Source: a virus. Taken from it: DNA of 64,000 bases. Below, in pieces: positions 15,272-45,395 of the stretch. Within the stretch, counting starts at the first letter, position 1. Each line of letters begins with the position of its first letter. The translations under genes and the position numbers were made by a program. The stretch is taken from the IMG/VR virus record IMGVR_UViG_3300028399_000005, positions 1-64,000 of that record, one strand, 5' to 3'. The notes beneath the pieces were generated by a model. It did not search any database. It was not told the origin of the DNA and saw nothing but the letters and a program-made list of their open reading frames with translations.

Positions 15272-16576
15272 ATGAGCAGACTTCTACAGCAGAACCGTGC
15301 AAAGCCGAAGCCCACACAAAAACAGCTATTGGGAATTATCAAGCGTCTCGATACTTCAAAAATTAAATCCATTAAAGAGCTTCTACCGAAAAACCTCGAG
15401 GACGTCTACAAAGACCCCCTCGCACCACCGATCGACGAGCTCGACCCGAAAACAATGAGGCTCGTCCCAGGAATCGCTTCTCTCATGGTGCAAGACCGAG
15501 AAGGGGACATCATCGTCCCGAGAGCATTCGTCCGATCGCTACCGACGTACATGAAGAACCCCGTCTTACGCTACAACCACGAAAACGGGACAGTCATCGG
15601 GCGAGTCCTCTTCGCATGGGTCGATGACGACGGTCTCAACATCATCGCCGAGATCGCCCGTGGCGTGAACGAGGACGACCTTCCAGAGAAGATCTGGAAC
15701 CTAATCAAGCAACGTATGCTCCGAGCGTTCTCGATCATGGGCGCCGTAAACGACTACGAGTACCTCGAGGACTCCGAGTACGGGGGGTACCTCATCAAAG
15801 ACCTCGAACTCATGGAGATCTCGGTCGTGGACATCCCAGCGAACCAAGAAGCTCTTTTCAGTGTGCTCGAGCGAAGTATCGAACTCAAACGCAAAATGAG
15901 CAAAAAGAAAGGTGAGAAAATGACAAAAGTCGAAAAAGACGCAAGCGTCGAACCTACTCCCACTGAGCCTCAACAAGCGCCTGTCATCGAGGAACAAGTC
16001 ATCGAACAGGCGCAAGCCGAGGAAGCTCCCGTCGCTCAAGAGACGACCGAAATGCCACAAGACGCTCAACAAGAAAGCGAGGCACCCGTCGAGCTTTCAA
16101 GCGAGCAAGAACAAGCACTGCTCGCAAGCATCTTGTCGCAAGTCGTCGAGCAACAAGAGCGCCTCGTCGAGGAGAACAGGCAAACGCGGGAACAACTCGC
16201 CGAACTGCGGGAATTGCTTGCACAGCAACAAGCACAGCAAGCACAACCCCAGATCGCCGAGGTAAGCGCTTCCGCAAAGCCCGAAACAAAGAAAGAAACC
16301 GAAACAGAGCCCGAAGCGGTAAAAACACCGCAAACAGTCAAATCCCAGCTACTCGGAGAACTCGTCATCGTGTCAAAGAAAGAGCTACAGCAACTCGTCG
16401 AACAAGCCGTCGAGAAGCGCCTCGCAAACCTCAATATCGAGAAGAACGTTTCAACCGTCGTTCGGAAAGCCGTGGACTCTGGCGCAATCCAACACGAAAT
16501 CGTGCCGTCCCGTAGCGAAACAGAAGCCGTCGGGCTGTCCAAGGCAATAGAGCTCATGTTCACTCGCCGAGAGTGA
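15272..16576 (+). CDS. HK97-type prohead protease with acidic/Gln-rich scaffold-like C-terminus
   Basis: DREGDII, YNH...IG, AFSIMG, ELMEISVVDIPAN; directly upstream of the MCP. Confidence 0.92.
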   Translation: MSRLLQQNRAKPKPTQKQLLGIIKRLDTSKIKSIKELLPKNLEDVYKDPLAPPIDELDPKTMRLVPGIASLMVQDREGDIIVPRAFVRSLPTYMKNPVLRYNHENGTVIGRVLFAWVDDDGLNIIAEIARGVNEDDLPEKIWNLIKQRMLRAFSIMGAVNDYEYLEDSEYGGYLIKDLELMEISVVDIPANQEALFSVLERSIELKRKMSKKKGEKMTKVEKDASVEPTPTEPQQAPVIEEQVIEQAQAEEAPVAQETTEMPQDAQQESEAPVELSSEQEQALLASILSQVVEQQERLVEENRQTREQLAELRELLAQQQAQQAQPQIAEVSASAKPETKKETETEPEAVKTPQTVKSQLLGELVIVSKKELQQLVEQAVEKRLANLNIEKNVSTVVRKAVDSGAIQHEIVPSRSETEAVGLSKAIELMFTRRE

Positions 16577-23147: not shown

Positions 23148-25724
23148 GTGGCGAGAAAGCTTCCCTACCCGTTGTACAAAGTTCTGCGCATAGACCACGA
23201 CGAAACGGACGAAGCGGGGCTCGTGATAAGTGCTTTGCGGGAAGACGGTACGAGAGTGCGTTTCTTCGTCAAGAACTTCAAGCGCTACTCGTTCGTCAAG
23301 AAAAGCGACTATGAACGCCTCGGGATCGGTCGATACATCGGGAACAACGATCTCCCCGTGGTCGTCGAAGAGGAAGGATTTAGGTTCCTTCTCGACGGCG
23401 AAGAAGTATATACGCTCAAAACACGCAAACCCGTCGTCCTCTCAAAAATGAAGGAAAGGTTCGGTGCGGACGTAATACACCAAGCGGACGTGCTCTACCC
23501 GACGGCGTTCATGGTCTGGATCGGGCTCAAGCGGTTCTTCTACCTCGAGAACGCCGCGTTGCTCGCAATGATGGGCGACGACCACGGCTCGGAAATAGAC
23601 TACCGCCAGATAAAGCCTGTAGCGGACGAGGACGTCCCAGCGGAGCGACGATTCATCTTCAAGCACCGCGTCGCCTACGTGGACATCGAGGTCTTGCCGA
23701 AAGAAGGCTCGGTCTCGTTCATCGACGTGGAAAAAGCCGAGGAACCCGTGCACGTTGTGAGCGTGGTGATCCGTGGCGAGGACAAAGACGTCGAACGAGT
23801 GTTCCTTCTCACAAGTGATCGTCGGCTCGTCAAGCATGGAACGACAATGCGCCACAAGTTCTACGACGTTGATTGCGAGATTCTCTTCGTCGCAAACGAG
23901 CGAGAAATGCTTTTGGCCCTCGACAAGACGCTCGCAGAGGTTACCGTGGTCTCGTTCTGGAACTTCAAGTTCGACGTGCCGTACTTGACCAAGAGAGCGC
24001 AAAAGCTCGGTGTTCGCCTCGATTTCTTGCGGGAAGCGATGATCTTCGACGCAATGATCGCTTTCTCGAAGTATCAACGTATAGACAGCTATCAGAAGCT
24101 CAAGAGTGTATTTGACTTCTTGCAAAAGTTCCGAGCGTCCGAGTTCGAGAAATTGCCACCGCAGTTCCGCACGGAAATAGGAAAGCGCTACATCGACGCA
24201 AGGCGTTCGCAGTCGGGGTCTTCTGCGATCACGGACGTTCGCTCGGGGAAAGTAGCCGAATACTTGTTCTACTCGTTCTCGGACGTGCTCGACATGTGGG
24301 CGCTCGACGAGGTTTGCGGGACGGACAGCTTCTTAGGGCTCATTGACGCCATCGGCCTCGCCGACCCGCTCGACGTTTTCATGCACTCGTCCACGCTCGA
24401 CCCCGTTCATTTGTTCTTCGCCATGCGCCACAAGGTCGCTTCCCCGAGCAAGATCCGAGACCGCAAGGAAGAAGTCATCCGCGGGGCGATCGTCTTCGAG
24501 CCGAAAGTCGGGTTGCACGAGAACGTGCTCGTGCTCGACATCTCGCACTACTACCCCTCGATCATTCTCTCGAAGGAAGTCAGCCCCGAGAACGTGCCTG
24601 GCAGGGAGAACAACCCTCGCATGTTCGACGGGCAGTTCTTCCTCGTTGCGTTCATGGAGCGCATGCTCAAGCTACGCTACCACTACGAAGCGTTGCGAGA
24701 TGCTACCGACGACCCTATTTTGAAGGATCGCTACGCGAAGGAAGCGTGGCGAGTGAAAACACTCACCTCGGGTGAATGGGGCTACATTGCTTCCGAGAGG
24801 AACCGCTACTATGCGGGCCACGTGAAACGAATCATCCTCGAAGAATCGAGGCGGGGGATCCAGAGAATCGCCGATTTTGTGAAAACGCAAGGCGTTGAGC
24901 TCATCGGCGGGGACACCGATTCCGTGTTCGTGCAGATCCTCGGCGAAGCAACGGTCGAGAGAATCCGCTCGCTCGAGCAAGCTATCAACGCGATGCTTGA
25001 CGATTATTGCAGAGAGCAAGGATACACTCAAAAGATCAAGCTCAAGGCGGAAAAGCTCGGCGGGCGAATGCTCATCACGCGCAAGAAGCGCTACGCAATG
25101 ATGATCGTTTGGAAGCAAGGGGACGCCGAGATCAAGCCCCTCGAGCAAGGAAAGCTCTACGTCAAGGGGCTCGACCTCGTCCGTGGCGACACCCCGCTCG
25201 TGGCAAAACATCTCCAACAAAGAATTCTTGACAAGATACTCAAAGAGGACGTAGAAAGCGCTCTTTCGTTCTTCGTCGATTATTACCACTCGATCGAGAA
25301 AAAGGCTCGAGAACTCCGAAAAAACGGCAAAAACAAGGACACCGAGTTCATAGAATCAATCGCTGTTCCGATCAACTTCAAAGCCGAGCTCGAGAGTTAC
25401 AAGAAAGGAACGTCATTCCATACGTACGCCAAGAGCGCAAGCGTCTGGAACGAGAGATTCCCAGATGAGCAAATCGGCGCACGGACGAAGTGCTTCGTCG
25501 TGTATTTCACGGACACGTACGATCAAGCATATCGTGGCCTCGATCGCGTCGTTTTCACGAACTCGGCCCTCGTGGATTGGAGCAAGTTCGAGATCGACGT
25601 TCGAAAGCACTTCGAGATCGCCGTGATCCGCAAAGTCTCGCTCCTCTTCGACAGCGTCGGCTATGACGAGGACAAGCTTCTCTCGCGGATCGCTGGCACC
25701 GTGGGAGCGGAAGACTTGTTCTGA
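23148..25724 (+). CDS. polB: family B DNA polymerase
   Basis: ExoI DIE, ExoII NFKFD, motif A DISHYYPS, motif C GDTDS, KKRY, KGLDLVR. Confidence 0.95.
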   Translation: MARKLPYPLYKVLRIDHDETDEAGLVISALREDGTRVRFFVKNFKRYSFVKKSDYERLGIGRYIGNNDLPVVVEEEGFRFLLDGEEVYTLKTRKPVVLSKMKERFGADVIHQADVLYPTAFMVWIGLKRFFYLENAALLAMMGDDHGSEIDYRQIKPVADEDVPAERRFIFKHRVAYVDIEVLPKEGSVSFIDVEKAEEPVHVVSVVIRGEDKDVERVFLLTSDRRLVKHGTTMRHKFYDVDCEILFVANEREMLLALDKTLAEVTVVSFWNFKFDVPYLTKRAQKLGVRLDFLREAMIFDAMIAFSKYQRIDSYQKLKSVFDFLQKFRASEFEKLPPQFRTEIGKRYIDARRSQSGSSAITDVRSGKVAEYLFYSFSDVLDMWALDEVCGTDSFLGLIDAIGLADPLDVFMHSSTLDPVHLFFAMRHKVASPSKIRDRKEEVIRGAIVFEPKVGLHENVLVLDISHYYPSIILSKEVSPENVPGRENNPRMFDGQFFLVAFMERMLKLRYHYEALRDATDDPILKDRYAKEAWRVKTLTSGEWGYIASERNRYYAGHVKRIILEESRRGIQRIADFVKTQGVELIGGDTDSVFVQILGEATVERIRSLEQAINAMLDDYCREQGYTQKIKLKAEKLGGRMLITRKKRYAMMIVWKQGDAEIKPLEQGKLYVKGLDLVRGDTPLVAKHLQQRILDKILKEDVESALSFFVDYYHSIEKKARELRKNGKNKDTEFIESIAVPINFKAELESYKKGTSFHTYAKSASVWNERFPDEQIGARTKCFVVYFTDTYDQAYRGLDRVVFTNSALVDWSKFEIDVRKHFEIAVIRKVSLLFDSVGYDEDKLLSRIAGTVGAEDLF

Positions 25725-25737
25725 GAGGTAGGTTCAC

Positions 25738-26619
25738 ATGACAGAAAAAGAAGGCAACAATGTCGAAATTCCCCGAATAACCCCTGTTTTCGCCCCGTTA
25801 GAGCCACTTGACAGCAAGACCCGAACAAAAGATCGGCCAAAAAGAAAACCCTCGAAAAGACGCAAAAAGCGGGCAATTTCGAGGGCGAAAAAGACCGCCC
25901 CGAAAGTAGTCATCACGATCGACGTCCGAGAGCAAGGAGCGTCGAAAATCCAACATTTCCTACGGTCGAAAGGCTGGGACGTTCGTCTCAAGATGATCCC
26001 CGTGGGCGACTATATCGTGGAAAGCGACGAGGGCGAATACGTCATCATCGAGCGGAAAACCGCCCCCGATTTGTTCCGTTCGCTCATCGATGGTAGACTC
26101 GATTTGCAGATCACGGAGCTCGGCGCCCACGAGCACTCGATCGTGGCGATCGTCGGGAGCGCCTACGATCCTCGGGCGAGCGAGAGCATGCGGAACGGCG
26201 AGTTCCCGCAACGAGTGGTCAGCGTCTTGACGAGCTTGGCGGTACGCGTGCCCGCCACGGGCTGGCGTCCGAGCTTGCTCTTCTTACGTAACGAGAACGA
26301 CTTCATGCTCTCGCTCGACTACATCGCTCGCTTGCTCCGAGACCGCCGTATCTATCGAGAAGAGCCCGCAACGCTCTTTCGGAGCTTGCAGAACCCGAGA
26401 AAGTCGATTGACGCGAAAGACCCCCGCCTCGTGCACGCGGTGCGGGTGCGGATCATCTCGAGCATCCCAGGCATCGGGCGCAACATTGCGAGCGAGATCT
26501 TGCATCATTTCGACGGCTCGCTCGAAGCGGTGTTCTCGGCGACGGTCGATCAATTGGAAAAAGTGCGTGGAATAGGAGCAAAACGGGCGATGATGATCTG
26601 GAACTTTCTTCATTCGTGA
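25738..26619 (+). CDS. XPF/ERCC4-family structure-specific nuclease with HhH2
   Basis: IDVRE, GDY, IERKT...D; C-terminal IPGIG and VRGIG HhH pair. Confidence 0.92.
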   Translation: MTEKEGNNVEIPRITPVFAPLEPLDSKTRTKDRPKRKPSKRRKKRAISRAKKTAPKVVITIDVREQGASKIQHFLRSKGWDVRLKMIPVGDYIVESDEGEYVIIERKTAPDLFRSLIDGRLDLQITELGAHEHSIVAIVGSAYDPRASESMRNGEFPQRVVSVLTSLAVRVPATGWRPSLLFLRNENDFMLSLDYIARLLRDRRIYREEPATLFRSLQNPRKSIDAKDPRLVHAVRVRIISSIPGIGRNIASEILHHFDGSLEAVFSATVDQLEKVRGIGAKRAMMIWNFLHS

Positions 26620-26651: not shown

Positions 26652-27608
26652 TTACCAAGTTGCGTCTTCGAACTCTTCGGCGATTACGAAGAGATCGGCG
26701 GTTAGGTCAGTAAAGGCATAGAACATACCGTATTCCTCGATTGCCTCGTCGACACGGGCGACGTATTCTGCGACGAGTTCATCGTCGTCGGATTCCTTGT
26801 TGAAGAACTTGATGAGTTCTTCTTTGATTAGTTTCTTGAATTTCTTGAAAGCGTCGAAGTCGGGGTCGGTGTAGAAAACGTATCTGCGCCCCCATGGGGT
26901 GTTGCTCTCATAAGGGTCTTCGCTTGCGTCGACGGTCTTGATGAGACCAGCCTCTTCTAAGACGTCGACCATGGGGATGCTGTCGTGGATGGAGATGACT
27001 TCGGTGCCTGTCTCGATGTCGTAGTCGGAGTCCGCAAACCCCATGTAGTGCTCACATGGGATGAAGACTCCTTCCCAGACTGTATTGGGAGTTCCGTCGT
27101 CGTGGTACCCAATTATTTCTTGGCGGGTGTCATACAATGGTTCTTTGCACACTGGACAGTAAATGTTCGGCGCAGAGCCATTCTTGAGAAGTCCGTCAAA
27201 AGGCTTATAACCCTCGAGTGAGGGATTCTCTCGGAGTTCGTGGATGATGAACTCCCATATTATTCTAACTCGCAACCTCTTTCCAATGTTCTTCGCCCTG
27301 GCGATGGGATGATTTGTGTATTCTCTTTCCCATCCCAGGGGGTTTTGATGGGTTGCGAGGTAGAAATGTAGGTATTCATTGATGGCGATCTCGTGGCATG
27401 TTGCCACTTTATGAAAAGTGTTGAGGTTCGCCACGAAATCGGAAAGGTCGCGATCGAGCTCGATTGCGGTCTTGATCACGCGCAGAAGGTATTCGTGCGC
27501 GTGCTTGTAGTAGAGAGGCACAAGAGCCTCTCGGGCGTATCTCTTTAGTTTTTTAATTGATGGGGCGATTTGTTTTAATTGTTCGAGCGGTGGCATTTTC
27601 TTTGTCAT
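26652..27608 (-). CDS. hypothetical protein (class I promoter)
   Basis: Leaderless ATG at 27608; CPVC...CEH. Confidence 0.75.
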   Translation of the reverse strand: MTKKMPPLEQLKQIAPSIKKLKRYAREALVPLYYKHAHEYLLRVIKTAIELDRDLSDFVANLNTFHKVATCHEIAINEYLHFYLATHQNPLGWEREYTNHPIARAKNIGKRLRVRIIWEFIIHELRENPSLEGYKPFDGLLKNGSAPNIYCPVCKEPLYDTRQEIIGYHDDGTPNTVWEGVFIPCEHYMGFADSDYDIETGTEVISIHDSIPMVDVLEEAGLIKTVDASEDPYESNTPWGRRYVFYTDPDFDAFKKFKKLIKEELIKFFNKESDDDELVAEYVARVDEAIEEYGMFYAFTDLTADLFVIAEEFEDATW

Positions 27609-27731
27609 CAATATAATATAGGAAGTGATAATATATAAAGGTTGTGGTAAAGACATGTTTTGATCCTTCTTTGGATGTATAATAGCGATAGTTTTTTATA
27701 AAGGTGGTTGGAATATGAGTATGAGAAGAAT

Positions 27732-27852
27732 GGGGCAGTAGCTCAGCCTGGGAGAGCGCGCGAGTAAAGCCCCCTTGCGCGCGCCACTCTGCGCACAGCA
27801 GATTGAGGGGGCCTCAGTGTAGTCGCGGGTTCAAATCCCGCCTGCTCCACCA
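27732..27852 (+). tRNA. tRNA-Ala-like RNA with a greatly expanded anticodon arm (121 nt)
   Basis: Acceptor GGGGCAG/CTGCTCC with G3.U70, A73 and encoded CCA; D arm GCTC/GAGC; T arm GCGGG-TTCAAAT-CCCGC; upstream TATA and downstream T-run. Confidence 0.85.
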
Positions 27853-28428
27853 CTTTTTTTGTGAAACAAGCCTAAACCCCGCCATCGTCTCGATGAGGTA
27901 ACTTCTCGTCGGTTTTCTTTGTGCAGATAACAATATTTTCGCAATTCTTTCTCGGATTCTTGCACTGCCCGAATGACTACGAAAAAAATGGCACTACAAG
28001 TATCCAGAACATACTTCAGGATTTTTTCGATTTTTCGGGGCAAAAACCCGAACTTTTTCGTTGAAAAAATCAGTTTCCAAGACAAAAAGTATAATTTCAC
28101 GATTAAGATTTTCAAAAAACTTAATGATTTACCTCAGTTTCCTATGAAAAGTATATCTTGAATACTCGAGCATATGTTTCATGGCGTGATACAAGCTATT
28201 GCAACAGAAATAATTATCGCCATTTCTTCTCGCATGTTTCAAGACCCGTGATACAAATATGAACTTAGAAAACAGTTCGGAACGTATCGAAAACAAAGAA
28301 GTCGAATAGCATGGCAGGATCCTACACAAGTTATGCATTTTTTCATATTCGCGCGCTCCGCACTTGTACTTACAAAATATTTCTTGTTACCACAACCTTT
28401 ATATATTTCTCATTCCTATAGTATATTG

Positions 28429-28902
28429 ATGACTGGACAAACAACTCTTGAAGAGTTTGCTCTTCGCCTCATCCCCGTGGGCGAAGAGATCGAAGTTGTT
28501 GTGAAAAAAGACGGGAAAGTAGTCGACTATGTCCCCGTCTTTCGAAAAGATAAAGCGAATTTCGTCCTCGGCACGTTCGAGGGTGTCGTCGAAGTCGAAG
28601 GCAAAACACCGCGCCAGGCGTTAAACGCGGTCAAACGTACACTCAAACAAACCTATGGCATTGTCAAATCGCGACGCAGACTACACACCGTCGACGTATC
28701 CCTCGAGCAGAGAGTCCTCGACTATATCGGGGACTACGACGAGTGGGTGCTCGTCTTCGACATATACGAACGCTACGATGTCGGGGTCTCGGAACTCATC
28801 GACGCTATTAAGAAGCTACACGAACAAGGAAGAATCGACGTGGCGGGCGGAATAACACCCCCGCCGATCCCAGCGAGCATGGCGCTCATCCGAAGAATCT
28901 AA
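28429..28902 (+). CDS. hypothetical protein with possible C-terminal winged helix (class I promoter)
   Basis: Leaderless ATG at 28429; SELIDAIKKLHEQGRI. Confidence 0.7.
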   Translation: MTGQTTLEEFALRLIPVGEEIEVVVKKDGKVVDYVPVFRKDKANFVLGTFEGVVEVEGKTPRQALNAVKRTLKQTYGIVKSRRRLHTVDVSLEQRVLDYIGDYDEWVLVFDIYERYDVGVSELIDAIKKLHEQGRIDVAGGITPPPIPASMALIRRI

Positions 28903-28908
28903 ACCCTC

Positions 28909-31900
28909 TTACTTCCCGCCTTCTGTTTTTTCTTCTGGCTCGCAATCACAAAGCGAGTATGCTATCGCAACCGCCTGTTCTCTGCTCATCCGCGGGTTCT
29001 CTTCAAGAATTATAGGGATCTTGCGAGAAACGCAGTCATCAACGCTCTCGTTGCGCCGACGCTCGCAACGCTTCTTCTTTTTGGCGCTTTCTTTGGCTTT
29101 CTCGGCCCAGGCGTCATAGTACTTGGCGAACTCTCGAAGGATCGCCTCGTCGCTCACGCTCTCGTGGATTCTGAGCACGGAGCGGAGCAACGAAGCAAGC
29201 GCGCTAAAAAGACGCTTGGATCGCTCGAGCTCGCCTTGCGAAGCATAGGAGCGAGCGGTCTCTGCGACCTCGACGACGATCGGCAAAGCGCTCTCCGCGG
29301 GGATCGGCGCCGTGGGCGTGCTTTGCGGATTCTCGAGCCCCTCGATCTTCGCGATCATCGTGCAACGACAATTCGGATGGATCGGCGGGCGGTTCTCCAA
29401 GTCCTTGATCGAGTACTCCGTCCCGTGCAAGGGCTCGCAGATCGGGCACACCCGCTCGTCTCGCCAGGCGAGGAAGATCCATTCCTTGATGCCCGCCCGT
29501 TCCATTGCTCGTTGTTTCGAGAGATTCGAAGCGAACAAGACCTCGGTGCGGGCGATGGTCTGTGCACGCTTCGTGGGGACGTCCGCCACGCGGGAAATTC
29601 TTCGGGCGATTTTGGGAATGCCTTCGCCAGCCTTGATGCCTTCTATGATCTCGTAGCGCAACTGTTGCTCGATGTCGAACGACACGGAGTCCGCAACGAG
29701 CAGTTTCCGCGTCTCGAGGATCTTTACGGCGTCCTCGTCGACAACGTCGAAAACGTCTGGGAGTTCTTGAATGACGGGTTTGCCGTTCTCGTCGATCACG
29801 AGGCTGACGCCGAGGACGAGCGCCTTGTCCAAGAACTCGTCAAGGACGTCTTGGAGCTCTTGCTCGACCCGTTGCACGAACTGTCGAATGTCTGGATCGT
29901 CCCGAATGCGGATGTATGCTTGTTCCTCATCCATGCTTGCGTAGCGCGTGGCGAGCTTCTTGTCAATGCCGAGCTCTTGGCGAAGTTGCGCTATTTTTCG
30001 ACGAATCGCCCTGGAAAATGCCAAGACGAGCGTTTTTATGCCCCTTAGTGCTCTGCGTAACAGTTCCGATCTGTTCTCGATCTTGGCGACGTTTCGGCGC
30101 TTTTTCTTGACCGTTTTCGGCTTGCTACGGTGCTTGTTCTTGGCTACCCGTTCCTTCGGTCGCCACTCGCTGATATAGAACGACGACGGCAATAATTCGT
30201 CGCTCGAAAGGGCTGGGGCGATCCCTTGCTTCTCGAGCAAGTCCGCGTAGTAGTTGAGCTTCTGATAGCTCCAACGCGGGAATCGTTGGCGGAGCACGCG
30301 CATGATCTGTTTTCGCTCCGAAGTGATTGTTTTCTCGACGAGGGCTTTTTTGAGCCATGCCTCGATCTTCTTTGCGAATTTGCGCTGGTCTTGAGCGTTC
30401 GGATCATCGGGCTTCGCTTCCTCGCCTTCGTCGTCCTCTTGCTCCTCAATGTTTTCTTCGTCGAGCTCGTCGCCTTGTTGCGAATCTTCATCATTGTTTT
30501 CATCGCTCGGTTCTTCTTGGCCAGGCGTTTCTACGACCTCGTAATCGGGGAGCCCGAAGAGCTCGGGGTCTCGCTGGATCGCTTCTTGGAGCCAAATGTT
30601 GAGGTCGAACGGGGCGTTGCCCCAAGGGACGGGGTCGAGCCCGAGCTCAGTTCTGACCTCGTTCACGGTGATCAAGCCCGAGCGAAGTTTTTGCGAGATC
30701 ACGGACTGCTTGCGGAGCTCTTCCTCGGCTTCCTCGTCAATGATCCATCGAAACTGCACGCGCTTCTCGTCGTCGAACTCGGGAATTATTTCCCTGTTGA
30801 TGAGTTCCTCGAGGTGCTTGAGCAACGGTTTGATCGTCGCTCGGCGCATGACGTGCTTTTGCTCGTAGCCCACGGCTTTGTTCACGGTGTCCGTGAGCCC
30901 GAGCTCGGACGGCGTGATGAGGAAAGCACTCATGACAATCCGTTGGAAGAACTCGAGCTCGTCGAGGAGCATGATCTCCTTGCGGGAAAACGTGAGCGGG
31001 ATAAATTTAAGGTCTCCCTCGCTGTCCGCACCGACTACGGGGAGCTTGTACGGTTGTCCTTCGACTTCCGACTTCCACATGTCTCGGAACGTCTCGAATT
31101 GTTCGAGCGAGCCGAAAATCGCAATGATTCCTTGCGGGATGTCGCCCTTGTCGTGGAACTTCTCAACGTTCTCGACGATCCGCACGAGCGACTCGACGAC
31201 TTGTTTCACGCTTTGGAGCGGAGACCAGCCGTAGAGCGAATACGTCGTGTCGTGGCGGGCTATCCAGACAATCTCCCTGTTCGAGAAAAACTCGATCTTG
31301 CCTCGGAAAGGATTCAGTTGCCAATAACCGATGACGACGCCGTTCGCGTCGACTTGCTTGACGAACGTTGCCCCGTCCACGGCGAACAATTCTTTCAACA
31401 GTCCAGCGGGGGCGTCGAGCGGGACGTATTGGATCGTGGTCTGCGCACTCTCGGTCTCGAGCGCCTTGTAAGCCCGAGGGTCGAAGTTCTTGACGATAAC
31501 ACCTTGGTCGAGTGTGAGCAAGTCATAGATCCCCTTGCGCAAGACTTCTTTCAAGCTCTCTTCGTTGGCGTTCACGGTCTCGAAGAACTGCGTGATCTCT
31601 TCGATCAGATCGGCGGTCTTCGCAGAATCGTCGAGCGGGTTCGTCGGCACGATCTCGTACGGAAAGCTCAAGACCTCGTTGATGATCAAGCTCGTGCACC
31701 GTTGCACCCAGACCGAGCCCGCAAGCGCCCGCAAGTTCGCATGGTCGACGAATTGCTTCGCCGAGACGCCGAGCTGGGACGCCATTCGCCCGATCGCTTG
31801 CTTTCGGCTGACGTTTGCGAACTGCTCGGACACAAGGGACTCCGACATTGGTTCCACGCCAAAGATCGTGCCGAGATTGAAAATGAACTTCGAAACGTCG

Positions 31901-31983
31901 CTAACGTCGTCCTTCCCGTTCGTCGGGACGGGCTTCGTCTGCGCTTTCTCGGCTTGGGCTTGGGCGGGTTCTTCTTCGCTCAT
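28909..31983 (-). CDS. portal protein fused to a Mu gpF / SPP1 gp7-like minor head domain
   Basis: N-terminal HK97 portal features (YGWSPL, PSELG, ITVNEVR); C-terminal RAQTIARTE, DERVCPIC, PPIHPNCRC. Confidence 0.92.
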   Translation of the reverse strand: MSEEEPAQAQAEKAQTKPVPTNGKDDVSDVSKFIFNLGTIFGVEPMSESLVSEQFANVSRKQAIGRMASQLGVSAKQFVDHANLRALAGSVWVQRCTSLIINEVLSFPYEIVPTNPLDDSAKTADLIEEITQFFETVNANEESLKEVLRKGIYDLLTLDQGVIVKNFDPRAYKALETESAQTTIQYVPLDAPAGLLKELFAVDGATFVKQVDANGVVIGYWQLNPFRGKIEFFSNREIVWIARHDTTYSLYGWSPLQSVKQVVESLVRIVENVEKFHDKGDIPQGIIAIFGSLEQFETFRDMWKSEVEGQPYKLPVVGADSEGDLKFIPLTFSRKEIMLLDELEFFQRIVMSAFLITPSELGLTDTVNKAVGYEQKHVMRRATIKPLLKHLEELINREIIPEFDDEKRVQFRWIIDEEAEEELRKQSVISQKLRSGLITVNEVRTELGLDPVPWGNAPFDLNIWLQEAIQRDPELFGLPDYEVVETPGQEEPSDENNDEDSQQGDELDEENIEEQEDDEGEEAKPDDPNAQDQRKFAKKIEAWLKKALVEKTITSERKQIMRVLRQRFPRWSYQKLNYYADLLEKQGIAPALSSDELLPSSFYISEWRPKERVAKNKHRSKPKTVKKKRRNVAKIENRSELLRRALRGIKTLVLAFSRAIRRKIAQLRQELGIDKKLATRYASMDEEQAYIRIRDDPDIRQFVQRVEQELQDVLDEFLDKALVLGVSLVIDENGKPVIQELPDVFDVVDEDAVKILETRKLLVADSVSFDIEQQLRYEIIEGIKAGEGIPKIARRISRVADVPTKRAQTIARTEVLFASNLSKQRAMERAGIKEWIFLAWRDERVCPICEPLHGTEYSIKDLENRPPIHPNCRCTMIAKIEGLENPQSTPTAPIPAESALPIVVEVAETARSYASQGELERSKRLFSALASLLRSVLRIHESVSDEAILREFAKYYDAWAEKAKESAKKKKRCERRRNESVDDCVSRKIPIILEENPRMSREQAVAIAYSLCDCEPEEKTEGGK

Positions 31984-33074: not shown

Positions 33075-34394
33075 CTACAAGTAGCCGAGCTGTTTTTCGG
33101 CGGAGAACAAGCCGAACACCCGTTTTCTGTGTTTCTGGCGCAGACCGAGCATCTTCCGAGCGAAGTCTTGGAGCGAGAACCCAGCGTTGGCTTCCTTCTC
33201 CGCGTCGCCGAGAAAATCGAACAAGATCTTGCTAAACGGCGACCCTTCCACGGCGAGAGCGAACGCTTTCCGTTGCTCATCGGCGGGGGCTTGGTTCTTC
33301 CGATTAACGCCTTCCTTGAACGCTTGCACCGCCTTCTCGTACATTACGCCGACAAGCGTCTCAACCTCGGCGTATCGTTGTTTCACGGCGTCGCCGAAGT
33401 TCGTGTGCACGATCTCGTAGAAATCTCTGCTCCCCTCGGCGAGGTCTCGCAGAATCGCCTCGAACATCTCGAACCCGCTCTGCTGGCGCACTCTCGAGAG
33501 CAAGAAGAACTCTTCCTTCTTGATTTTTAAACGGTTTCCGTTCGCGTCCCTCGCAACGAACCCCTCTTCGTCTTTCTCTAAGTCTCCGAGCAACTCGAGG
33601 GCGTAGTTGATGTTGTCGGCTGGTATGCGTCTCGGTCTCAGTGCGCCGATCATGCCAGCGACGCCGTCGAGTGTGTTTGCCTTCGTGATCTCCGCCCTGT
33701 AAGACTCGTTCTGGCCCGCAACGCGCATCGTGAGCAACGCCGTTTGGTGCTTGTCGTAGCGAGTAACGAGGCTGTGGCGACTCCAGTGCGGGAACATGAC
33801 CTCGAAAGCGTAGGTGAATCGCTTGCTCAAGAGATCGTCGAGCTGGTCAAGGCTGACGTCGAGCGCCGTCAAGAAACCGTCGACGAAATCGATGTCGGCG
33901 GGGATCTTGTTCCGCGTGGCGAAAACCCAATCACCACAGTAGTAGAAAACGTTGAGTAATGTACCATCGAACTTCGTCTCGAGCCACGCCCGCTCCCAAT
34001 CGAAGTCGACGTGGCGCCCTTCTTCCTCGTTGTAATTGAAGAACCGAGGGAAGGCGAGGGCTACATAGTTGCCCTTGGCGTCCACGACGAGCCCGCGCAT
34101 GACTTGGAACAGGGGTTCTCGGCGCACGAGCCTCGTCAGCCCAAGATTCGTGTTGAGTTTCATGGTCTGGCGGTAGTTGAGCAAGAACAAGTCCTTCTCG
34201 GGGTGTTGCCGAACGTTGATGCCAAAGATGAAAGCATCGAGATAGTCCTCGGCGTAGTATCTGCGCCCCTCGTGGTAGTACATGTTGCCGTCCCGCTCGT
34301 CGAACACCGAGACCTTGCGCTTGGGGAAGGCTTTCTTCTCGACGAGGCGGGCGAGCATCTCGTACTGCAACATTTCTTCGATCTTGTCTGTCAT
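33075..34394 (-). CDS. T4 Rnl1-like RNA ligase
   Basis: AFPRFFNYNEE, motif I KFDG, EGFV, KIK. Confidence 0.88.
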   Translation of the reverse strand: MTDKIEEMLQYEMLARLVEKKAFPKRKVSVFDERDGNMYYHEGRRYYAEDYLDAFIFGINVRQHPEKDLFLLNYRQTMKLNTNLGLTRLVRREPLFQVMRGLVVDAKGNYVALAFPRFFNYNEEEGRHVDFDWERAWLETKFDGTLLNVFYYCGDWVFATRNKIPADIDFVDGFLTALDVSLDQLDDLLSKRFTYAFEVMFPHWSRHSLVTRYDKHQTALLTMRVAGQNESYRAEITKANTLDGVAGMIGALRPRRIPADNINYALELLGDLEKDEEGFVARDANGNRLKIKKEEFFLLSRVRQQSGFEMFEAILRDLAEGSRDFYEIVHTNFGDAVKQRYAEVETLVGVMYEKAVQAFKEGVNRKNQAPADEQRKAFALAVEGSPFSKILFDFLGDAEKEANAGFSLQDFARKMLGLRQKHRKRVFGLFSAEKQLGYL

Positions 34395-41862: not shown

Positions 41863-43842
41863 ATGAACGAACAAGACGAATCATTCGACCCAGAGAAAGT
41901 AGTAGCGAAAATTCTCGATCTTGCGCCGAAAACAGTCCTCATCATGGGAAAGATCGGCGAGGACGAAAGAAAGGCGCTTGAGCGCCACATCAAGGAAGAA
42001 TTCAAGAAGAGCGCCGAAAAGGAGAACGCCCACGCAGAACTACTCGGTTTCGCGGACTACTACGGACGGCACCAAAAATACGAAAAAACGAAGAAAGCAT
42101 TCGGCGACCGAATCGTCGAAGCCCTTGACAGAATCGCAACAAACCAAATAGTCGACATTCTCGAAGTGTACCGCCCATTGTTGCTCTCGAAATATTACAA
42201 CTTTACGCACTTGAACAAAAAAATAGACGGGAGGATCGCAGACATTCTCGTCCCCACGAATTTCGAGCGAGTCTTTCTATCTACACTGTTCGTCGGCGAA
42301 ATAACGCACTTGGCAACAGGCGCCGAGCTCGTGGGGAGTATTTCCCGTCCAGACCTCGAATTCAAGGCGAAAGAAAGCGATTTCGACGTTCGGGCGTTTT
42401 CCACGCACGAACTCACGTTCGCAACGGCGGTCGGTTTCACGCTCGAAAAAGTGTTCAAGCGTTTGCTCGCACGCGTTACGCAAACGGCGTATGAGAACGA
42501 CGTGCCAAACGTCGTGGCGACCGTTGATCGGTTCGTAGCGTCGATTAAAGGACGAGAACTCTTGCTCGAGCTCGTCGAAGACCCTGGCTTCGACTTGCAA
42601 GTGCGGGAATGGGAGAGCCTCGGAATGCTCGATGAGTCAGTCATCGATCCTCGAGAAGCCGTCCGCGAGCACGCCCTTCAAGAACCGACGGCGTCTTTCC
42701 GAACGTTGTTCTTGCCCTTCGACTCAAGGTTTTTCTCCCGCGAGAACAAACAACGCATGCTCGACCTCTTCGAGCATGATAAAGACGGTGCTGTCCTCGT
42801 CGGCGATAGCTACGTGGCCTTGCGCGTGCTTGCGGATGACGCTACCATTAACAAGAGCTTCGTCCAGACCATTTTCATCGATCCGCCGTTCAACAAGCCG
42901 AACGAGGCGAACTACAAGTATAGCGTCAAGATCGGCGACGACGTCTGGATTGCCATGCTCCGCTCAAGGCTTCGGCTCGCAAGGGAGCTCTTGCACGAGA
43001 CGGGCTCGATCTTCGTTCGATGCGACTATGAGGGCTCTCACTACGTCCACCTTCTTCTCGACGAGATTTTCGGCAAGAAGAATTTCCGCAACGAAATCGT
43101 CGTCAAGCGCTCGAACCGCATCAAGAGCCCGACGTCTCGCTTCTTGTCGTGGCACGACGTTGTGTTCTTCTATGCGAAAAGAGCGGACAGAGCTTTTTTC
43201 AAAGAGCTTGTCGTCGATGAAGAGGCACGCAATGGCTGGCGGGGAATGGACATGCCAGGCGATTCTTACGAGGTCGTCCCCTCGGGGCTCGAGTCATTAT
43301 TCGAGCCGTGGATGCTTGAGAAAGACTCTTATGAACAGACAGTTACTCGTGCGAGGCTGTTCTTCGGAAAACCTATCATGCCCCCGCCAGGGCGCAGATT
43401 CCCTTCCCAAGCAAAAATCAACGAAGAGATCGAGAAGGGCAATATTCGCTTTTCTCGCTCGGGGCGCCCGTTGATCCGCAAGCGTGGCTACAAGGTGCTT
43501 ACCGACGATTGGACGGACATTTTCGGCTACAAGAACCGCTTCGGGTTCACGACGGAGAACAGCGAGGAACTGCTACGACGCGTGATCATGGCAACTTCGA
43601 AGGAAGAGGACGTTGTGCTCGACTTTTTCGCTGGTAGCGGGACGACCCTTGCCGTGGCGCACAAGCTCGGGCGAAAATGGGTCGGCGTAGAAATCAACGA
43701 CCACGCTTTCGAGGTGCTCATCCCCCGCATGAAGAAAGTGCTGTTCTACGACGAAGGAGAGATCAGCTCGTTGAAAGAAGTCAGAGAAAAATACAACAAA
43801 CGCCGAGCTGGCGGGGTCTTCTACTATTACTCTTATGAATAG
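41863..43842 (+). CDS. large adenine methyltransferase (type III Mod-like, beta class)
   Basis: IDPPFN, DEIFGKKNFRNEI, VLDFFAGSGTT; no Res gene adjacent. Confidence 0.9.
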   Translation: MNEQDESFDPEKVVAKILDLAPKTVLIMGKIGEDERKALERHIKEEFKKSAEKENAHAELLGFADYYGRHQKYEKTKKAFGDRIVEALDRIATNQIVDILEVYRPLLLSKYYNFTHLNKKIDGRIADILVPTNFERVFLSTLFVGEITHLATGAELVGSISRPDLEFKAKESDFDVRAFSTHELTFATAVGFTLEKVFKRLLARVTQTAYENDVPNVVATVDRFVASIKGRELLLELVEDPGFDLQVREWESLGMLDESVIDPREAVREHALQEPTASFRTLFLPFDSRFFSRENKQRMLDLFEHDKDGAVLVGDSYVALRVLADDATINKSFVQTIFIDPPFNKPNEANYKYSVKIGDDVWIAMLRSRLRLARELLHETGSIFVRCDYEGSHYVHLLLDEIFGKKNFRNEIVVKRSNRIKSPTSRFLSWHDVVFFYAKRADRAFFKELVVDEEARNGWRGMDMPGDSYEVVPSGLESLFEPWMLEKDSYEQTVTRARLFFGKPIMPPPGRRFPSQAKINEEIEKGNIRFSRSGRPLIRKRGYKVLTDDWTDIFGYKNRFGFTTENSEELLRRVIMATSKEEDVVLDFFAGSGTTLAVAHKLGRKWVGVEINDHAFEVLIPRMKKVLFYDEGEISSLKEVREKYNKRRAGGVFYYYSYE

Positions 43843-44600
43843 CGCTTTTTGGGTTTGCCGACCACTCGGTCTCGCCATAAAAACAGCCCGCTCGTTTCCT
43901 TGCTCCCGAAGTGGTTGAACTCGCTGTCGAAAAACGTCGAGAGACGGGCGTTCTCCCATCCACCGTTGATTCTGGCGAGCTTTTCATAGACGGACGGCAC
44001 GGGGACATCGTGCTCGACAATGTAGGCCCAGACGTCTTTCGCCGTCCACTCGGCGATCGGGAACGCCGTGTCCGTGAACCCGCTCTTTTTCGGTTCTATC
44101 CACGTTCCCGTGCGTCGCTTCGCCTCGGCGATCCGCGCTCGGCGCTTCTGGGACTCTTGGGATCGTAGACCGAGGAAACAGACGTCCCAGCCGTGGCGTT
44201 TCACGGCTTCCGACAAACGGGGGAAAAACGGCGATTTAGCGATGTGTGATTCTCTTGCGGACGGTTTATCGCCCCCAGGCCTTTTCTCGTAACTATGGCG
44301 AGAAAAAGGGGCAATCTGGTCAATTCCTTGCAAGATCTCTTTCTCGATCCAACGGGGGATCAACCATTCGCCGTAGTCCCAGTGGCGAACCCAGACGTCC
44401 CTCTTGTACTGGACGACGAGATGGAGCATCGCCATGGAGTCCTTCCCGCCAGAGACGGCGACATAGGGGTTTTGATAGCTCGCCAAGACTCGGCGAATGA
44501 ACGAGCGGGACGTGGCTACCTTGCGCCGATACTCCGACGTGTTCGTGTGTAGGAGAAAGCCAGCGATGACGGGTTTCGGCATGAATTTGGACGGTTTCAT
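43833..44600 (-). CDS. cysH: CysH/PAPS-reductase-like protein of a type IV-B CRISPR locus
   Basis: PP-loop VSGGKDS, GLRSQES, PIAEWTAKDVWAY; ATG at 44600 overlaps the csf3 stop. Confidence 0.88.
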   Translation of the reverse strand: MKPSKFMPKPVIAGFLLHTNTSEYRRKVATSRSFIRRVLASYQNPYVAVSGGKDSMAMLHLVVQYKRDVWVRHWDYGEWLIPRWIEKEILQGIDQIAPFSRHSYEKRPGGDKPSARESHIAKSPFFPRLSEAVKRHGWDVCFLGLRSQESQKRRARIAEAKRRTGTWIEPKKSGFTDTAFPIAEWTAKDVWAYIVEHDVPVPSVYEKLARINGGWENARLSTFFDSEFNHFGSKETSGLFLWRDRVVGKPKKRYS

Positions 44601-45391
44601 TGCGCAAGACCTATTTTTTGCTTTACTTGGGCGGAGAGCTCGCACTTTGCGCCGACGGGGACGCACGCGTCGATGTTTCGTCTGTCCCAGTACGGCGGTT
44701 TCCAGGCGAGGTAGGCGAAGTCGTCGTATTCGTCGCAGTAGCGCGTCGGGATGGGTCGTAGCGCTTCTTTTGTTTTCGGGTTCCAGAAGCTCGCCTTGTC
44801 GGGGTTTGGCTTGATCTCGACATGGCTGACTTCGCCGAAGCCGTAGGCGGTCTTTTTCCCGAGCCCCGTAACGTGTGCTATGAGCGATAGCAAGGAGTAG
44901 GGCTTCGCCTCGACGAAGACGTCGGCGTATCGGGCGGAAATGTAGGGGATTCTGATCGAGTAGTTCTTGAACGTCCCAGAGCCGAGGCTGATCTTGCTCT
45001 TCTTCCCGCCGATCTTGTGGGCGTCTGGCTCGTGGAAGCGTTTGTAAACATACTCGATGTTCGCCCGCTCCTCGACGTTGATGAGCTTCCCGTCGGCGTC
45101 CTTGAATAGGATGACAGAGGAGTGATAGAAGTACGTTTGGCGGATTGGCATGGGCAACGCTCGGACGCGCTTTCCGAGGGGGTCGTTCGAGGGGAGCATG
45201 TAGTAGTCTTGCCCGAGGGTGAGGCGGAGCAACATGTGCGCCACGAGCCCGTCGAAGTTGATCCACGGGTGCGTGATCATGACGGGCGCTTTCAAGTGGA
45301 ACCGCACGAGGACGTGCGCCCACTCTTCGCCTTTGAGCGTGGCGTAGTACTCCGTCGGCGTGTCCGCGAGCAAGTATTGCCGTAGGAACAT
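44597..45391 (-). CDS. csf3: type IV Cas5-like subunit
   Basis: FDGLVA, Gly loop GLGKKTAYGFG, RPIP, PPYW. Confidence 0.85.
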   Translation of the reverse strand: MFLRQYLLADTPTEYYATLKGEEWAHVLVRFHLKAPVMITHPWINFDGLVAHMLLRLTLGQDYYMLPSNDPLGKRVRALPMPIRQTYFYHSSVILFKDADGKLINVEERANIEYVYKRFHEPDAHKIGGKKSKISLGSGTFKNYSIRIPYISARYADVFVEAKPYSLLSLIAHVTGLGKKTAYGFGEVSHVEIKPNPDKASFWNPKTKEALRPIPTRYCDEYDDFAYLAWKPPYWDRRNIDACVPVGAKCELSAQVKQKIGLAQ

Positions 45392-45395
45392 AGCG

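What the first reader, a model, noticed from the sequence alone, without database searches (positions are those of the whole stretch)
27732..27852. tRNA-Ala-like RNA whose anticodon arm is a ~60-nt extended domain
Seen: textbook acceptor (G3.U70, A73, CCA), D and T arms. Between them lie CGCGAG/CTC(A)GTG, a TAAA bulge, an 8-bp GCCCCCTT/GAGGGGGC helix and an apical TCTGC/GCAGA hairpin. CT-TGC (the Ala anticodon) sits at 27774-27778 but ~10 nt too far out, and I could not draw a canonical bulge-helix-bulge. Known: G3.U70 suffices for AlaRS charging, and tmRNA uses an Ala acceptor with a long helix replacing the anticodon arm. Inference: an alanylatable tRNA mimic (decoy, ribosome rescue or Ala donor) or a tRNA with non-canonical introns.
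Basis: partly seen in the sequence, partly recalled or inferred. Interest (0 to 1): 0.8.

Follow-up and report, generated by a model that had tools for sequence, protein, structure and literature searches.

The report
Viral alanine-tRNA frame with rod arm
An uncultured tailed virus of vent archaea carries a perfectly formed alanine-tRNA body whose anticodon arm is 44 bases too long; no standard archaeal splicing route turns it into a working tRNA, so it is most likely a tRNA-shaped small RNA that cannot read codons, though this rests on one sequence.

Summary
At 27732-27852 (+) lies the only Rfam tRNA match of an 83,942-bp archaeal-type tailed-virus record (42.2 bits). It has G3.U70, A73, an encoded CCA, a TATA box and a T-run. 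It has 61 nt where 17 belong.

I could not show what it does. A bulge-helix-bulge (BHB) excision search resolved 16 of 17 cellular intron-bearing tRNAs. It gave no valid anticodon arm here. Two borderline routes exist:
- Route B has no BHB. It removes 27763-27772 and 27783-27816 and gives a perfect UGC arm. An Ala arm arises in 8% of shuffles. It would carry G37, whereas 15 of 15 natural Ala tRNAs seen here have A37.
- Route A is BHB-guided. It ends in anticodon CUG, C37 and a bulged A. About 4% of shuffles do as well.

No homologue could be fetched, and no RNA run holds the locus.

Odds:
- 0.45: a non-decoding, probably alanylatable, tRNA-framed RNA derived from an intron-bearing tRNA-Ala.
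- 0.25: a tRNA-Ala(UGC) that is still spliced.
- 0.20: a recent pseudogene.

The same virus holds a second tRNA-framed RNA. The scan has noted analogous viral tRNA-framed RNAs on other DNA, but not this sequence.

The parts
27692..27704 (+). A/T-rich TATA-like promoter element (TTTTTTATAAAGG), about 30 nt upstream of the first acceptor base
   Evidence: Read directly. Its role as an archaeal promoter is inferred from position and composition and was not tested.
27732..27758 (+). 5' part of the tRNA frame: acceptor 5' strand (G3 at 27734), U8 A9, D stem-loop with G18 G19, and G26
   Evidence: Rfam RF00005 alignment with posterior probabilities near 1; sequence.
27759..27764 (+). Outer helix, 5' strand (CGCGAG). 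It would start the anticodon stem of a normal tRNA.
   Evidence: Pairs with 27813-27819 in the MFE and centroid folds.
27765..27768 (+). Four-base bulge TAAA
   Evidence: Unpaired in the folds. The cellular tRNA-Phe intron in L007 starts with a like motif (A-C-UAAAG) at the same tRNA position 30/31.
27769..27776 (+). Second helix, 5' strand (GCCCCCTT). It holds C-T-TGC (27774-27778), which looks like the 5' half of a tRNA-Ala(UGC) anticodon arm.
   Evidence: Compared with natural CUUGCA loops.
27777..27804 (+). Apical region: GC-repeat hairpin (GCGC / CACTCT / GCGC in the MFE fold, or TCTGC / GCACA / GCAGA) and a 5-nt 3' bulge GATTG
   Evidence: Alternative pairings from the GCGCGCG repeats appear.
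27805..27812 (+). Second helix, 3' strand (GAGGGGGC)
27813..27819 (+). Outer helix, 3' strand (CTCAGTG) with bulged A27816
27820..27852 (+). 3' part of the tRNA frame: variable loop TAGTC, T arm with TTCAAAT loop, acceptor 3' strand (U70 at 27846), A73 and encoded CCA
27854..27860 (+). Run of seven T one base after CCA; a likely archaeal terminator
   Evidence: Read. The second tRNA-framed RNA of this virus has the same CCA-C-T-run ending. The terminator role is inferred.
27763..27772 (+). Hypothetical intron 1 of Route B (10 nt, tRNA position 30/31)
   Evidence: Exhaustive excision search. No BHB at its ends. It is shorter than the 11-nt minimum quoted in PMC4090602.
27783..27816 (+). Hypothetical intron 2 of Route B (34 nt, position 40/41). 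With intron 1 removed the arm reads CGCGC CUUGCGC GCGUG.
   Evidence: An Ala arm arises by chance in 250 of 3000 shuffles and a UGC arm in 85 of 3000. No BHB.
27757..27790 (+). Best BHB-like motif (Route A, step 1). The central helix pairs 27757-27760 with 27780-27783. It has 3-nt bulges and a 4-bp flank pairing 27753-27756 with 27787-27790. The cuts fall after 27762 and 27785.
   Evidence: a=26, b=49; H=4, h1=4. A motif of this kind at this site occurs in 23 of 1000 shuffles. Step 2 cuts after 27792 and 27812.

Best explanation
The gene makes a tRNA-shaped small RNA that cannot decode.

Proposed mechanism, step by step:
- It is transcribed on its own, from a TATA-type promoter to a U-run placed one base after an encoded CCA.
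- The intact alanine-tRNA frame (acceptor, D arm, T arm, tertiary-contact bases) should fold into the L shape.
- That frame should be trimmed by the host's tRNA end-processing enzymes.
- Because it carries G3.U70 and A73, the host alanyl-tRNA synthetase should charge it.
- In place of the 17-nt anticodon arm it carries a 61-nt rod. The rod is a 6-bp helix with a bulged A, a UAAA bulge, a 7-8-bp G/C helix and a GC-repeat tip.
- The rod puts any anticodon-like triplet far out of the ribosome's reach.

The rod looks like a remodelled intron-bearing tRNA-Ala(UGC) anticodon arm. It has a GCCCC stem, CUUGCG, and a BHB-like motif at position 30/31. I therefore read the gene as a captured pre-tRNA-Ala that the virus keeps as a stable handle-plus-bait RNA. 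The rod would be the working part, binding or diverting a host or viral factor that inspects tRNA anticodon arms or precursors.

Shown: the anatomy, the viral setting, and the failure of standard BHB excision.
Inferred: expression, end processing, charging, and any decoy or bait role.
For: 1. The frame is a full tRNA and the only one in the record: 42.2 bits against a threshold of 29. G3.U70, A73, CCA, G18 G19, the T-loop TTCAAAT and a G15/C48 pair are read directly.

2. The record is an archaeal-type tailed virus. It encodes terminase, a portal-MuF fusion, a prohead protease, PolB, an RFC-like loader, a primase and an XPF-type nuclease.

3. A BHB-guided excision search resolved 16 of 17 unique cellular intron-bearing tRNAs, drawn from 25 metagenome loci. 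For this RNA it gave 5 end products and 0 valid arms. Earlier, stricter and looser versions of the search also gave none.

4. The CUUGC is followed by G. In 15 of 15 natural Ala tRNAs seen here the base after the anticodon is A: 12 and one each.

5. The same genome has a second tRNA-framed RNA at 57326-57450 (-). It ends in the same way (discriminator-CCA-C-U-run) and has a forked domain in place of the anticodon arm (fold z -2.76). An earlier scan note calls it conserved and non-decoding; I did not check that claim.

6. Such genes are common in viral contigs. Of these, 90 keep at least 6 of 7 acceptor pairs. Of the 90, 72 have no single-excision solution. Among the 69 unique ones with a normal D arm, 62 are not BHB-resolvable.

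7. The virus record encodes no splicing endonuclease and no RtcB.
Against: - There is a single sequence. No homologue could be fetched, so neither conservation nor covariation of the rod is known.
- The rod folds only marginally better than shuffles: z -1.89, and 11 of 200 shuffles fold as well.
- Removing 27763-27772 and 27783-27816 gives a perfect 5-bp arm with loop CUUGCGC and the alanine anticodon UGC. GCA plus GCG make up 665 of 1232 Ala codons in 41 viral ORFs, so such a tRNA would be useful.
- My BHB rule missed 1 of 17 natural controls. It needed loosening after it first missed the two-intron tRNA-Phe in L007. Unusual but real splice signals can therefore escape it.
- The host and its endonuclease type are unknown.
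- Intron-bearing tRNA genes do occur in archaeal viruses: HGTV-1 has one (PMC13532342, passage read).
- An intact frame is also expected of a recently disabled gene.
Confidence: 0.45

Rival explanations
1. It is a working tRNA-Ala(UGC) gene with two non-canonical introns (Route B). A 10-nt intron at position 30/31 (27763-27772) and a 34-nt intron at 40/41 (27783-27816) are removed by a host endonuclease of relaxed specificity. This leaves the arm CGCGC CUUGCGC GCGUG.
For: - This is the only solution of an exhaustive search of up to two excisions that meets all the criteria (5 bp, Y32, U33, R37), and its anticodon matches the alanine identity of the acceptor.
- UGC arms arise in 85 of 3000 shuffles and any Ala arm in 250 of 3000.
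- The 5' junction (G30 | A-G-UAAAG) resembles that of the 30/31 intron of the cellular tRNA-Phe in L007, L013 and L024 (G30 | A-C-UAAAG). Introns at 30/31 recur in L002, L009 and L019.
- GCA and GCG make up 54% of viral Ala codons.
- Viral archaeal tRNA introns are on record.
Against: - Neither excision has a BHB, strict or relaxed. The natural 30/31 introns do have one.
- A 10-nt intron is below the 11-129-nt range quoted in PMC4090602.
- G37 is out of family: 15 of 15 natural Ala tRNAs seen have A37.
- At 8% for any Ala arm, the solution is not clearly beyond chance. The GCGCGCG repeats make such arms easy to assemble.
Confidence: 0.25
2. It is a recently disabled tRNA-Ala gene. An intron-bearing tRNA-Ala(UGC) was captured from a host and its splice signals have decayed. 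For example, the 3-nt 3' bulge between the CUUG/UGAG helix and the GGGGC strand may have been lost. The transcript would have no role.
For: - The inner stem GCCCC/GGGGC with CUUGCG mimics a canonical intron-bearing Ala arm. The helix that pairs CUUG (27774-27777) with UGAG (27804-27807) abuts the stem with no bulge, where natural genes have CAAG-UG|A.
- The rod is not clearly more stable than chance.
- No second copy or relative was found.
Against: - The promoter, the terminator, the CCA and every conserved tRNA position are intact.
- The 6-bp outer helix needs two complementary insertions, 10 nt on the 5' side and 7 nt on the 3' side. Simple decay does not explain this.
- Compact viral genomes rarely keep dead genes for long (general knowledge).
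- The virus keeps a second, clearly non-tRNA, tRNA-framed RNA.
Confidence: 0.2
3. It is a pre-tRNA-like transcript that the host endonuclease does cut at BHB motifs (Route A). The first cuts fall after 27762 and 27785, at position 30/31. The second fall after 27792 and 27812, at the canonical 37/38. This leaves a 7-nt micro-exon. The payoff would be the released or circularised small RNAs, or the odd ligated product, rather than a decoder.
For: - The first motif has a 4-bp central helix, two 3-nt bulges and a 4-bp flank. At that site this occurs in 23 of 1000 shuffles.
- The exon then begins A-C-U, as positions 31-33 should. The second motif sits in the canonical register, pairing positions 32-35.
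- The layout (30/31 plus 37/38 with a micro-exon) is the one seen in the cellular tRNA-Phe in L007.
Against: - The product has anticodon CUG on an alanine frame, C at position 37, and a bulged A in the anticodon stem.
- CAG is used 192 times in 41 viral ORFs, so a Gln-to-Ala misreader would hurt the virus too.
- 17 of 400 shuffles reach an arm of this loose kind by BHB-guided steps.
- BHB-like motifs with a 4-bp flank occur somewhere in the insert in 556 of 1000 shuffles.
- The excised pieces have no significant complementarity in the viral genome. There is one 11-mer match, about what chance gives by my estimate.
Confidence: 0.07

Closest known systems
Multi-intron archaeal tRNA genes with BHB introns at non-canonical positions, for example 30/31 plus 37/38 with an anticodon micro-exon. 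Review: PMC4090602. Examples seen here: L002, L007, L009, L019.
   Same: A full tRNA frame with extra bases confined to the anticodon arm. A junction after position 30 followed by A-S-UAAAG, as in L007. A BHB-like motif that uses bases 25-28 as the central helix. An archaeal-type promoter.
   Different: No chain of BHB excisions gives a valid arm, against 16 of 17 controls. The one clean arm needs BHB-less cuts, a 10-nt intron and G37. The gene is viral.
tmRNA (tRNA-like domain)
   Same: Alanine identity through G3.U70. A T arm and a CCA end. A long helix where the anticodon arm would be.
   Different: This RNA has a full D arm and normal tRNA connectivity. It has no tag reading frame, no pseudoknots and only 44 extra nt. 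ARAGORN tmRNA mode finds nothing. Rfam gives 15.5 bits against a threshold of 47, over the T arm only. tmRNA is a bacterial system (established knowledge).
Small stable RNAs C and D (species 1 and 2) of the phage T4 tRNA cluster. Recalled, and named in an earlier scan note; not checked in any paper here.
   Same: Virus-encoded stable RNAs with tRNA-like ends, made by the tRNA-processing route, with no decoding role known.
   Different: They come from a bacteriophage and have a different architecture. No sequence comparison was made here.
YrlA / Y-RNA-type tRNA-shaped RNAs bound by Ro60/Rsr (Rfam RF02553)
   Same: A tRNA-like module joined to a long protein-docking stem. They occur in phages and, by earlier scan notes, in giant viruses.
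   Different: The Rfam YrlA score is 12.9 bits against a threshold of 69, over the T arm only. The record has no TROVE protein and no RtcB. The connectivity is not permuted.
'Enigmatic introns' in tRNA genes of Lak megaphages (preprint 10.1101/356790, passages read), and the insert-bearing tRNA-framed genes of IMG/VR contigs found here
   Same: Viral tRNA genes that are too long, with inserts no known machinery is shown to remove.
   Different: Those are phages of bacteria. Their inserts were placed by a eukaryote-mode tRNA finder. No sequence similarity to this insert was found.

Membership tests
tRNA (Rfam RF00005) | 7-bp acceptor stem, D arm, T arm with a T-loop, conserved tertiary bases | tested here: met
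   42.2 bits against a gathering score of 29, covering model positions 1-71; sequence.
tRNA (Rfam RF00005) | 5-bp anticodon stem with a 7-nt loop (U33, purine 37) in the transcript | tested here: not met
   61 nt lie between G26 and the variable loop. The model skips 59 nt where it expects 15. No 7-nt loop closes the rod.
Archaeal BHB-intron tRNA gene | A bulge-helix-bulge (4-bp helix between two 3-nt bulges) or an accepted relaxed form at each exon-intron pair | tested here: not met
   No BHB at the Route B junctions. BHB-like motifs exist elsewhere in the insert, but motifs of that quality occur in 556 of 1000 shuffles.
Archaeal BHB-intron tRNA gene | Excision at those motifs yields a canonical anticodon arm that matches the tRNA's identity | tested here: not met
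   0 valid arms among 5 end products, against 16 of 17 cellular controls resolved. The only BHB-guided arm is CUG with C37 and a bulged A.
Archaeal BHB-intron tRNA gene | A spliced product observed | not testable with these tools
   The only run holding the locus is a DNA run. Contigs cannot show RNA joints.
tRNA-Ala (identity set) | G3.U70 wobble pair with A73 | tested here: met
   G27734 / T27846 and A27849. Charging itself was not tested.
tRNA-Ala (identity set) | An NGC anticodon in a loop with A37, as in natural Ala tRNAs | tested here: not met
   UGC (27776-27778) lies inside a helix and is followed by G. 15 of 15 natural Ala tRNAs seen have A37.
tmRNA | A tag-peptide reading frame and pseudoknots joined to the tRNA-like domain | tested here: not met
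   ARAGORN tmRNA mode finds nothing. The best Rfam tmRNA-type score is 15.5 bits against a threshold of 47. There are only 44 extra nt.
YrlA / Y RNA | A Ro60-binding stem, and a Ro60/Rsr (TROVE) partner in the genome | tested here: not met
   YrlA scores 12.9 bits against 69. PF05731 is absent from the record. The host genome could not be searched.

The most novel reading that the evidence does not exclude
This RNA and the forked RNA at 57326-57450 are the first members of a class of archaeal-virus 'tRNA-framed' RNAs. A heat-stable frame, processed by RNase P and chargeable by AlaRS, displays a bait that imitates an intron-bearing anticodon arm. The bait diverts a host factor aimed at tRNAs, such as an anticodon nuclease, the splicing endonuclease or a modification enzyme. 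It may act together with the viral Rnl1-type RNA ligase, or it may serve as the RNA partner of the virus's array-less type IV-B complex.
Probability: 0.15. Interest if true: 0.8.

Novelty: new variant of a known kind. Interest (0 to 1): 0.5.

Why it matters
If the RNA is a non-decoding alanine-tRNA frame, it would extend the phage habit of making tRNA-shaped small RNAs to viruses of thermophilic archaea, where I found no such RNA described. That statement rests on two searches. One search (archaeal virus + tRNA + intron + bulge-helix-bulge) listed 3 papers. One search (tRNA-like / archaeal virus / anticodon arm) found 124 papers holding two of the three terms, and none of the 15 listed was about such an RNA.

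It would also give a simple test object. The transcript is 121 nt, and its charging, cleavage and partners can all be assayed.

If instead it is spliced, it would show that an archaeal endonuclease accepts junctions with no recognisable BHB and a 10-nt intron. That would widen the rules used by tRNA gene finders.

Either way, tRNA finders miss it. Default ARAGORN gives nothing, and intron mode gives a wrong call. The same is probably true of many of the insert-bearing tRNA frames seen in viral contigs.

Tried and rejected
Homologue hunting:
- Exact and gapped DNA patterns of the tRNA in viral contigs gave 0 hits.
- The portal protein and the 334-aa neighbour, used as single queries, found no relatives. 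An alignment of the neighbour's 7 homologues also found none.
- A portal alignment gave 80 distant viral loci. All 80 of their records were searched for tRNA. Nine had matches, all 70-79 nt, except one 106-nt match below threshold in the record of L208. None resembles this RNA.
- The metagenome scan returned 25 loci. All are ordinary cellular intron-bearing tRNAs (Phe, His, CAU) and none is a homologue.
- The genome scan with the 5' 27-mer returned 4 loci: three archaeal tRNA-Phe and one bacterial tRNA-Ala(GGC), all without an insert.
- The GenBank phage collection matched only the T arm. The portal there is at most 29% identical.
- A relative with an 82%-identical neighbour gene exists on a 9,960-bp contig.

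Expression:
- No RNA holder is listed. The only run is a DNA run, and it may be the source of this DNA.
- Laying its contigs showed no variants in the gene. It showed one other contig with a normal cellular tRNA-Ala(GGC) matching the flanks.

Readings rejected:
- ARAGORN's tRNA-Cys(ACA) call: only a 4-bp arm with a mismatch, a long variable arm, and it conflicts with G3.U70.
- Any single 44-nt intron: no register gives 5 bp. The best is CGCGA GUAAAGC CCGUG, with anticodon AAA and an A.C mismatch.
- A canonical 37/38 intron in the inner stem: no 3' bulge (and by hand).
- An attachment-site remnant: no integrase and no second copy of any 11-mer or longer of the gene.
- An antisense RNA against the virus: one 11-mer match, about what chance gives by my estimate.
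- K-turn, sarcin-ricin and C/D-box motifs: looked for by eye, none found.
- Y RNA.
- A viral tRNA-repair pair: an Rnl1-type ligase is present but no PNK3P domain and no RtcB. The AAA_33 hit is a generic AAA ATPase.

Host identity: not settled. The protein atlas pointed only to viral and mixed archaeal clusters. The ANME-1 virus accession I tried is not in the phage collection. Supplementary files of the papers were not opened. The tRNA tables of PMC13532342 and 10.1101/356790 may hold comparable genes.

Full report
WHAT IS THERE

The window is the first 64 kb of an 83,942-bp virus record. The record is linear and estimated 77% complete. Its genes mark it as a tailed virus with an archaeal-type replication set:
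- large terminase (1070-2674, -);
- RFC-like clamp loader (7685-8713);
- Cas4-like nuclease;
- prohead protease (15272-16576);
- family-B DNA polymerase (23148-25724);
- an XPF/ERCC4 nuclease with helix-hairpin-helix motifs (25738-26619);
- a portal-MuF fusion (28909-31983, -);
- a T4 Rnl1-like RNA ligase (33075-34394, -);
- a primase;
- several DNA methylases;
- ThyX;
- a TGT-like fragment;
- a RAMP protein next to a PAPS-reductase-like gene.

The only public run holding the stretch is labelled a hydrothermal vent metagenome.

The finding lies between the divergent 334-aa gene (26652-27656, -) and a 189-aa gene (28333-28902, +). It is the only Rfam match in the window and in the whole record: tRNA, 27732-27849, 42.2 bits against a gathering score of 29. 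The model skips 59 nt where it expects 15. A TATA-like TTTTTTATAAAGG lies at 27692-27704. Seven T's start one base after the encoded CCA. The gene therefore looks like an independent, nearly mature-sized transcription unit (inferred).

CAN IT BE SPLICED INTO A tRNA?

The archaeal splice signal is a 4-bp helix between two 3-nt bulges. In canonical pre-tRNAs the first two anticodon bases lie in that helix. Reported introns run from 11 to 129 nt (PMC4090602, passages read). I coded this geometry and asked which chains of up to three excisions leave a 17-nt arm with 5 pairs, Y32, U33 and R37.

The control set was 25 metagenome loci that share this D arm and T arm and carry 21-51 extra nt. These reduce to 17 unique cellular tRNAs. 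One of them, L024, sits among ribosomal-protein genes.

My first criteria missed the two-intron tRNA-Phe of L007, L008, L013 and L024. Inspection showed why. Its 30/31 intron has a good BHB. Its canonical 37/38 intron has only 2 of 4 central pairs, but 5-bp flanks on both sides. After I allowed for that, 16 of 17 controls were resolved to sensible arms (GAA, GUG, CAU). The one failure, L019, has a 27:43 mismatch and a further intron near the acceptor.

The viral RNA gave 5 end products and no valid arm.

TWO BORDERLINE ROUTES

Route B ignores BHBs.
- An exhaustive search of one or two excisions finds a single arm that meets all criteria: CGCGC CUUGCGC GCGUG. It comes from removing 27763-27772 (10 nt, position 30/31) and 27783-27816 (34 nt, position 40/41).
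- Its anticodon fits the alanine acceptor.
- Its first junction resembles the L007 intron (G30 | A-S-UAAAG).
- Dinucleotide shuffles of the insert give some Ala arm in 250 of 3000 cases and a UGC arm in 85 of 3000.
- Neither excision has a BHB, and 10 nt is below the reported range.
- The loop would have G37. All 15 natural Ala tRNAs I saw have A37.

Route A follows BHBs.
- The best motif pairs 27757-27760 with 27780-27783. It has 3-nt bulges and a 4-bp flank, and cuts after 27762 and 27785.
- A second motif, in the canonical register, cuts after 27792 and 27812.
- This reproduces the 30/31 plus 37/38 micro-exon layout of L007.
- The product reads CGCGA CUCUGCC UC(A)GUG: a glutamine anticodon on an alanine frame, a pyrimidine at position 37, and a bulged A.
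- 17 of 400 shuffles do as well.
- CAG is used 192 times in 41 viral ORFs.

Neither route is convincing. Neither is excluded.

THE UNSPLICED RNA

On its own the insert folds as a rod (-26.2 kcal/mol). It has a 6-bp helix with bulged A27816, the UAAA bulge, a 7-bp G/C helix, a 5-nt bulge and a GC-repeat tip. The fold is only marginally better than shuffles (z -1.89).

The rod contains what looks like the 5' half of a tRNA-Ala(UGC) anticodon arm (GCCCC CUUGCG) and its 3' strand (GGGGC). The helix that natural genes use as the BHB centre (CUUG/CAAG followed by UG|A) here runs straight into the stem with no bulge. I read this as descent from an intron-bearing tRNA-Ala.

Other findings on the insert and the record:
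- No other Rfam family matches the insert.
- ARAGORN finds no tmRNA.
- The record holds no Ro60/TROVE protein, splicing endonuclease, RtcB, integrase or PNK3P domain.
- No part of the RNA is repeated in the viral genome, and none is significantly complementary to it.

CONTEXT THAT SHIFTS THE ODDS

The same virus has a second tRNA-framed gene at 57326-57450 (-). It has a 6-bp acceptor, a T-like hairpin with a non-tRNA loop, and a forked domain whose loops GCCACC and GGUGGC can pair. It has the same ending as this gene: discriminator, CCA, C, U-run. An earlier agent of this scan judged it conserved and non-decoding. I did not re-test that conservation.

Viral contigs at large hold many tRNA frames with 20-50-nt inserts.
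- 90 of those matches keep at least 6 of 7 acceptor pairs.
- 72 of the 90 have no single-excision solution.
- Only 7 of the 69 unique ones with a normal D arm are BHB-resolvable.

Lak megaphage tRNAs with 'enigmatic introns' are the published face of this phenomenon (10.1101/356790, passages read). One archaeal virus tRNA with an intron is on record (PMC13532342, passage read).

VERDICT

The function is not shown. My odds are:
- 0.45: a non-decoding, probably alanylatable, tRNA-framed RNA derived from a pre-tRNA-Ala.
- 0.25: a tRNA-Ala(UGC) still spliced by BHB-less cuts.
- 0.20: a recently disabled gene.
- 0.07: a BHB-processed pre-tRNA mimic.

The main weakness is that all of this rests on one sequence. 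Every route to homologues or RNA data was exhausted or closed (see Tried and rejected). The relative known is the cheapest decisive datum.

Noticed in passing
window 57326-57450 (-): A second tRNA-framed RNA. It has a 6-bp acceptor, a mini D hairpin, and a forked domain whose two loops (GCCACC and GGUGGC) are complementary. It also has a T-like hairpin with a non-tRNA loop, and it ends GCCA-C-U-run like the RNA studied here. Fold -58.4 kcal/mol, z -2.76. The tip of my RNA also carries GCCAC, but a shared 5-mer may well be chance.
   Followed up: partly
90 matches keep at least 6 of 7 acceptor pairs, so they are tRNA frames with 20-50 extra nt. 72 of the 90 have no single-excision solution. Only 7 of the 69 unique ones with a normal D arm are BHB-resolvable. 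Several families recur: near-identical copies in L046, L049, L056, L071, L104 and L135; D-loop inserts in L094, L098, L102, L120 and L150. One group (L050, L060, L065, L126, L133, L142) has an insert after position 28/29 containing CAGCAAT-like words.
   Followed up: partly
L007 103-199, also L008, L013, L024: A cellular archaeal tRNA-Phe(GAA) with two introns (30/31 and 37/38) and a micro-exon. The central helix of the canonical intron has only 2 of 4 pairs but 5-bp flanks on both sides. Both introns contain UAAAG. L024 is a chromosomal contig (ribosomal proteins L1, L10 and L11, FtsY, eIF6) with 37% G+C.
   Followed up: yes
L019 around 2555-2680: A tRNA-Phe whose acceptor 5' strand seems to lie about 30 nt upstream of the D arm. 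This suggests a further intron near position 7/8, besides a 37-nt intron at 30/31.
   Followed up: no
L208 2370-2475: A distant portal relative (28% identity) carries a 106-nt sub-threshold tRNA-like gene (22.9 bits). It has a good acceptor and T arm, an odd D region and 41 extra nt in the anticodon loop.
   Followed up: partly
L149 (IMG/VR): Another viral tRNA frame with G3.U70 and A73 (alanine identity). It has 28 extra nt and no recognisable anticodon loop. It is unrelated in sequence to this insert.
   Followed up: no
window 27601-27652: The promoter-side stretch of the 334-aa gene recurs at least four more times on the source contig and on two other contigs of the sample (table 8).
   Followed up: no
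window 33075-34394 (-): A T4 Rnl1-like RNA ligase (PHROG 562, E 9e-27; Pfam RNA_lig_T4_1 just under threshold). The 77%-complete record has no PNK3P domain and no RtcB.
   Followed up: partly
window 43833-46286 (-), 5883-6677 (+), 53005-53676 (+): A PAPS-reductase-like gene next to a RAMP protein, as in array-less type IV-B loci; a ThyX gene; and a TGT-family fragment.
   Followed up: no
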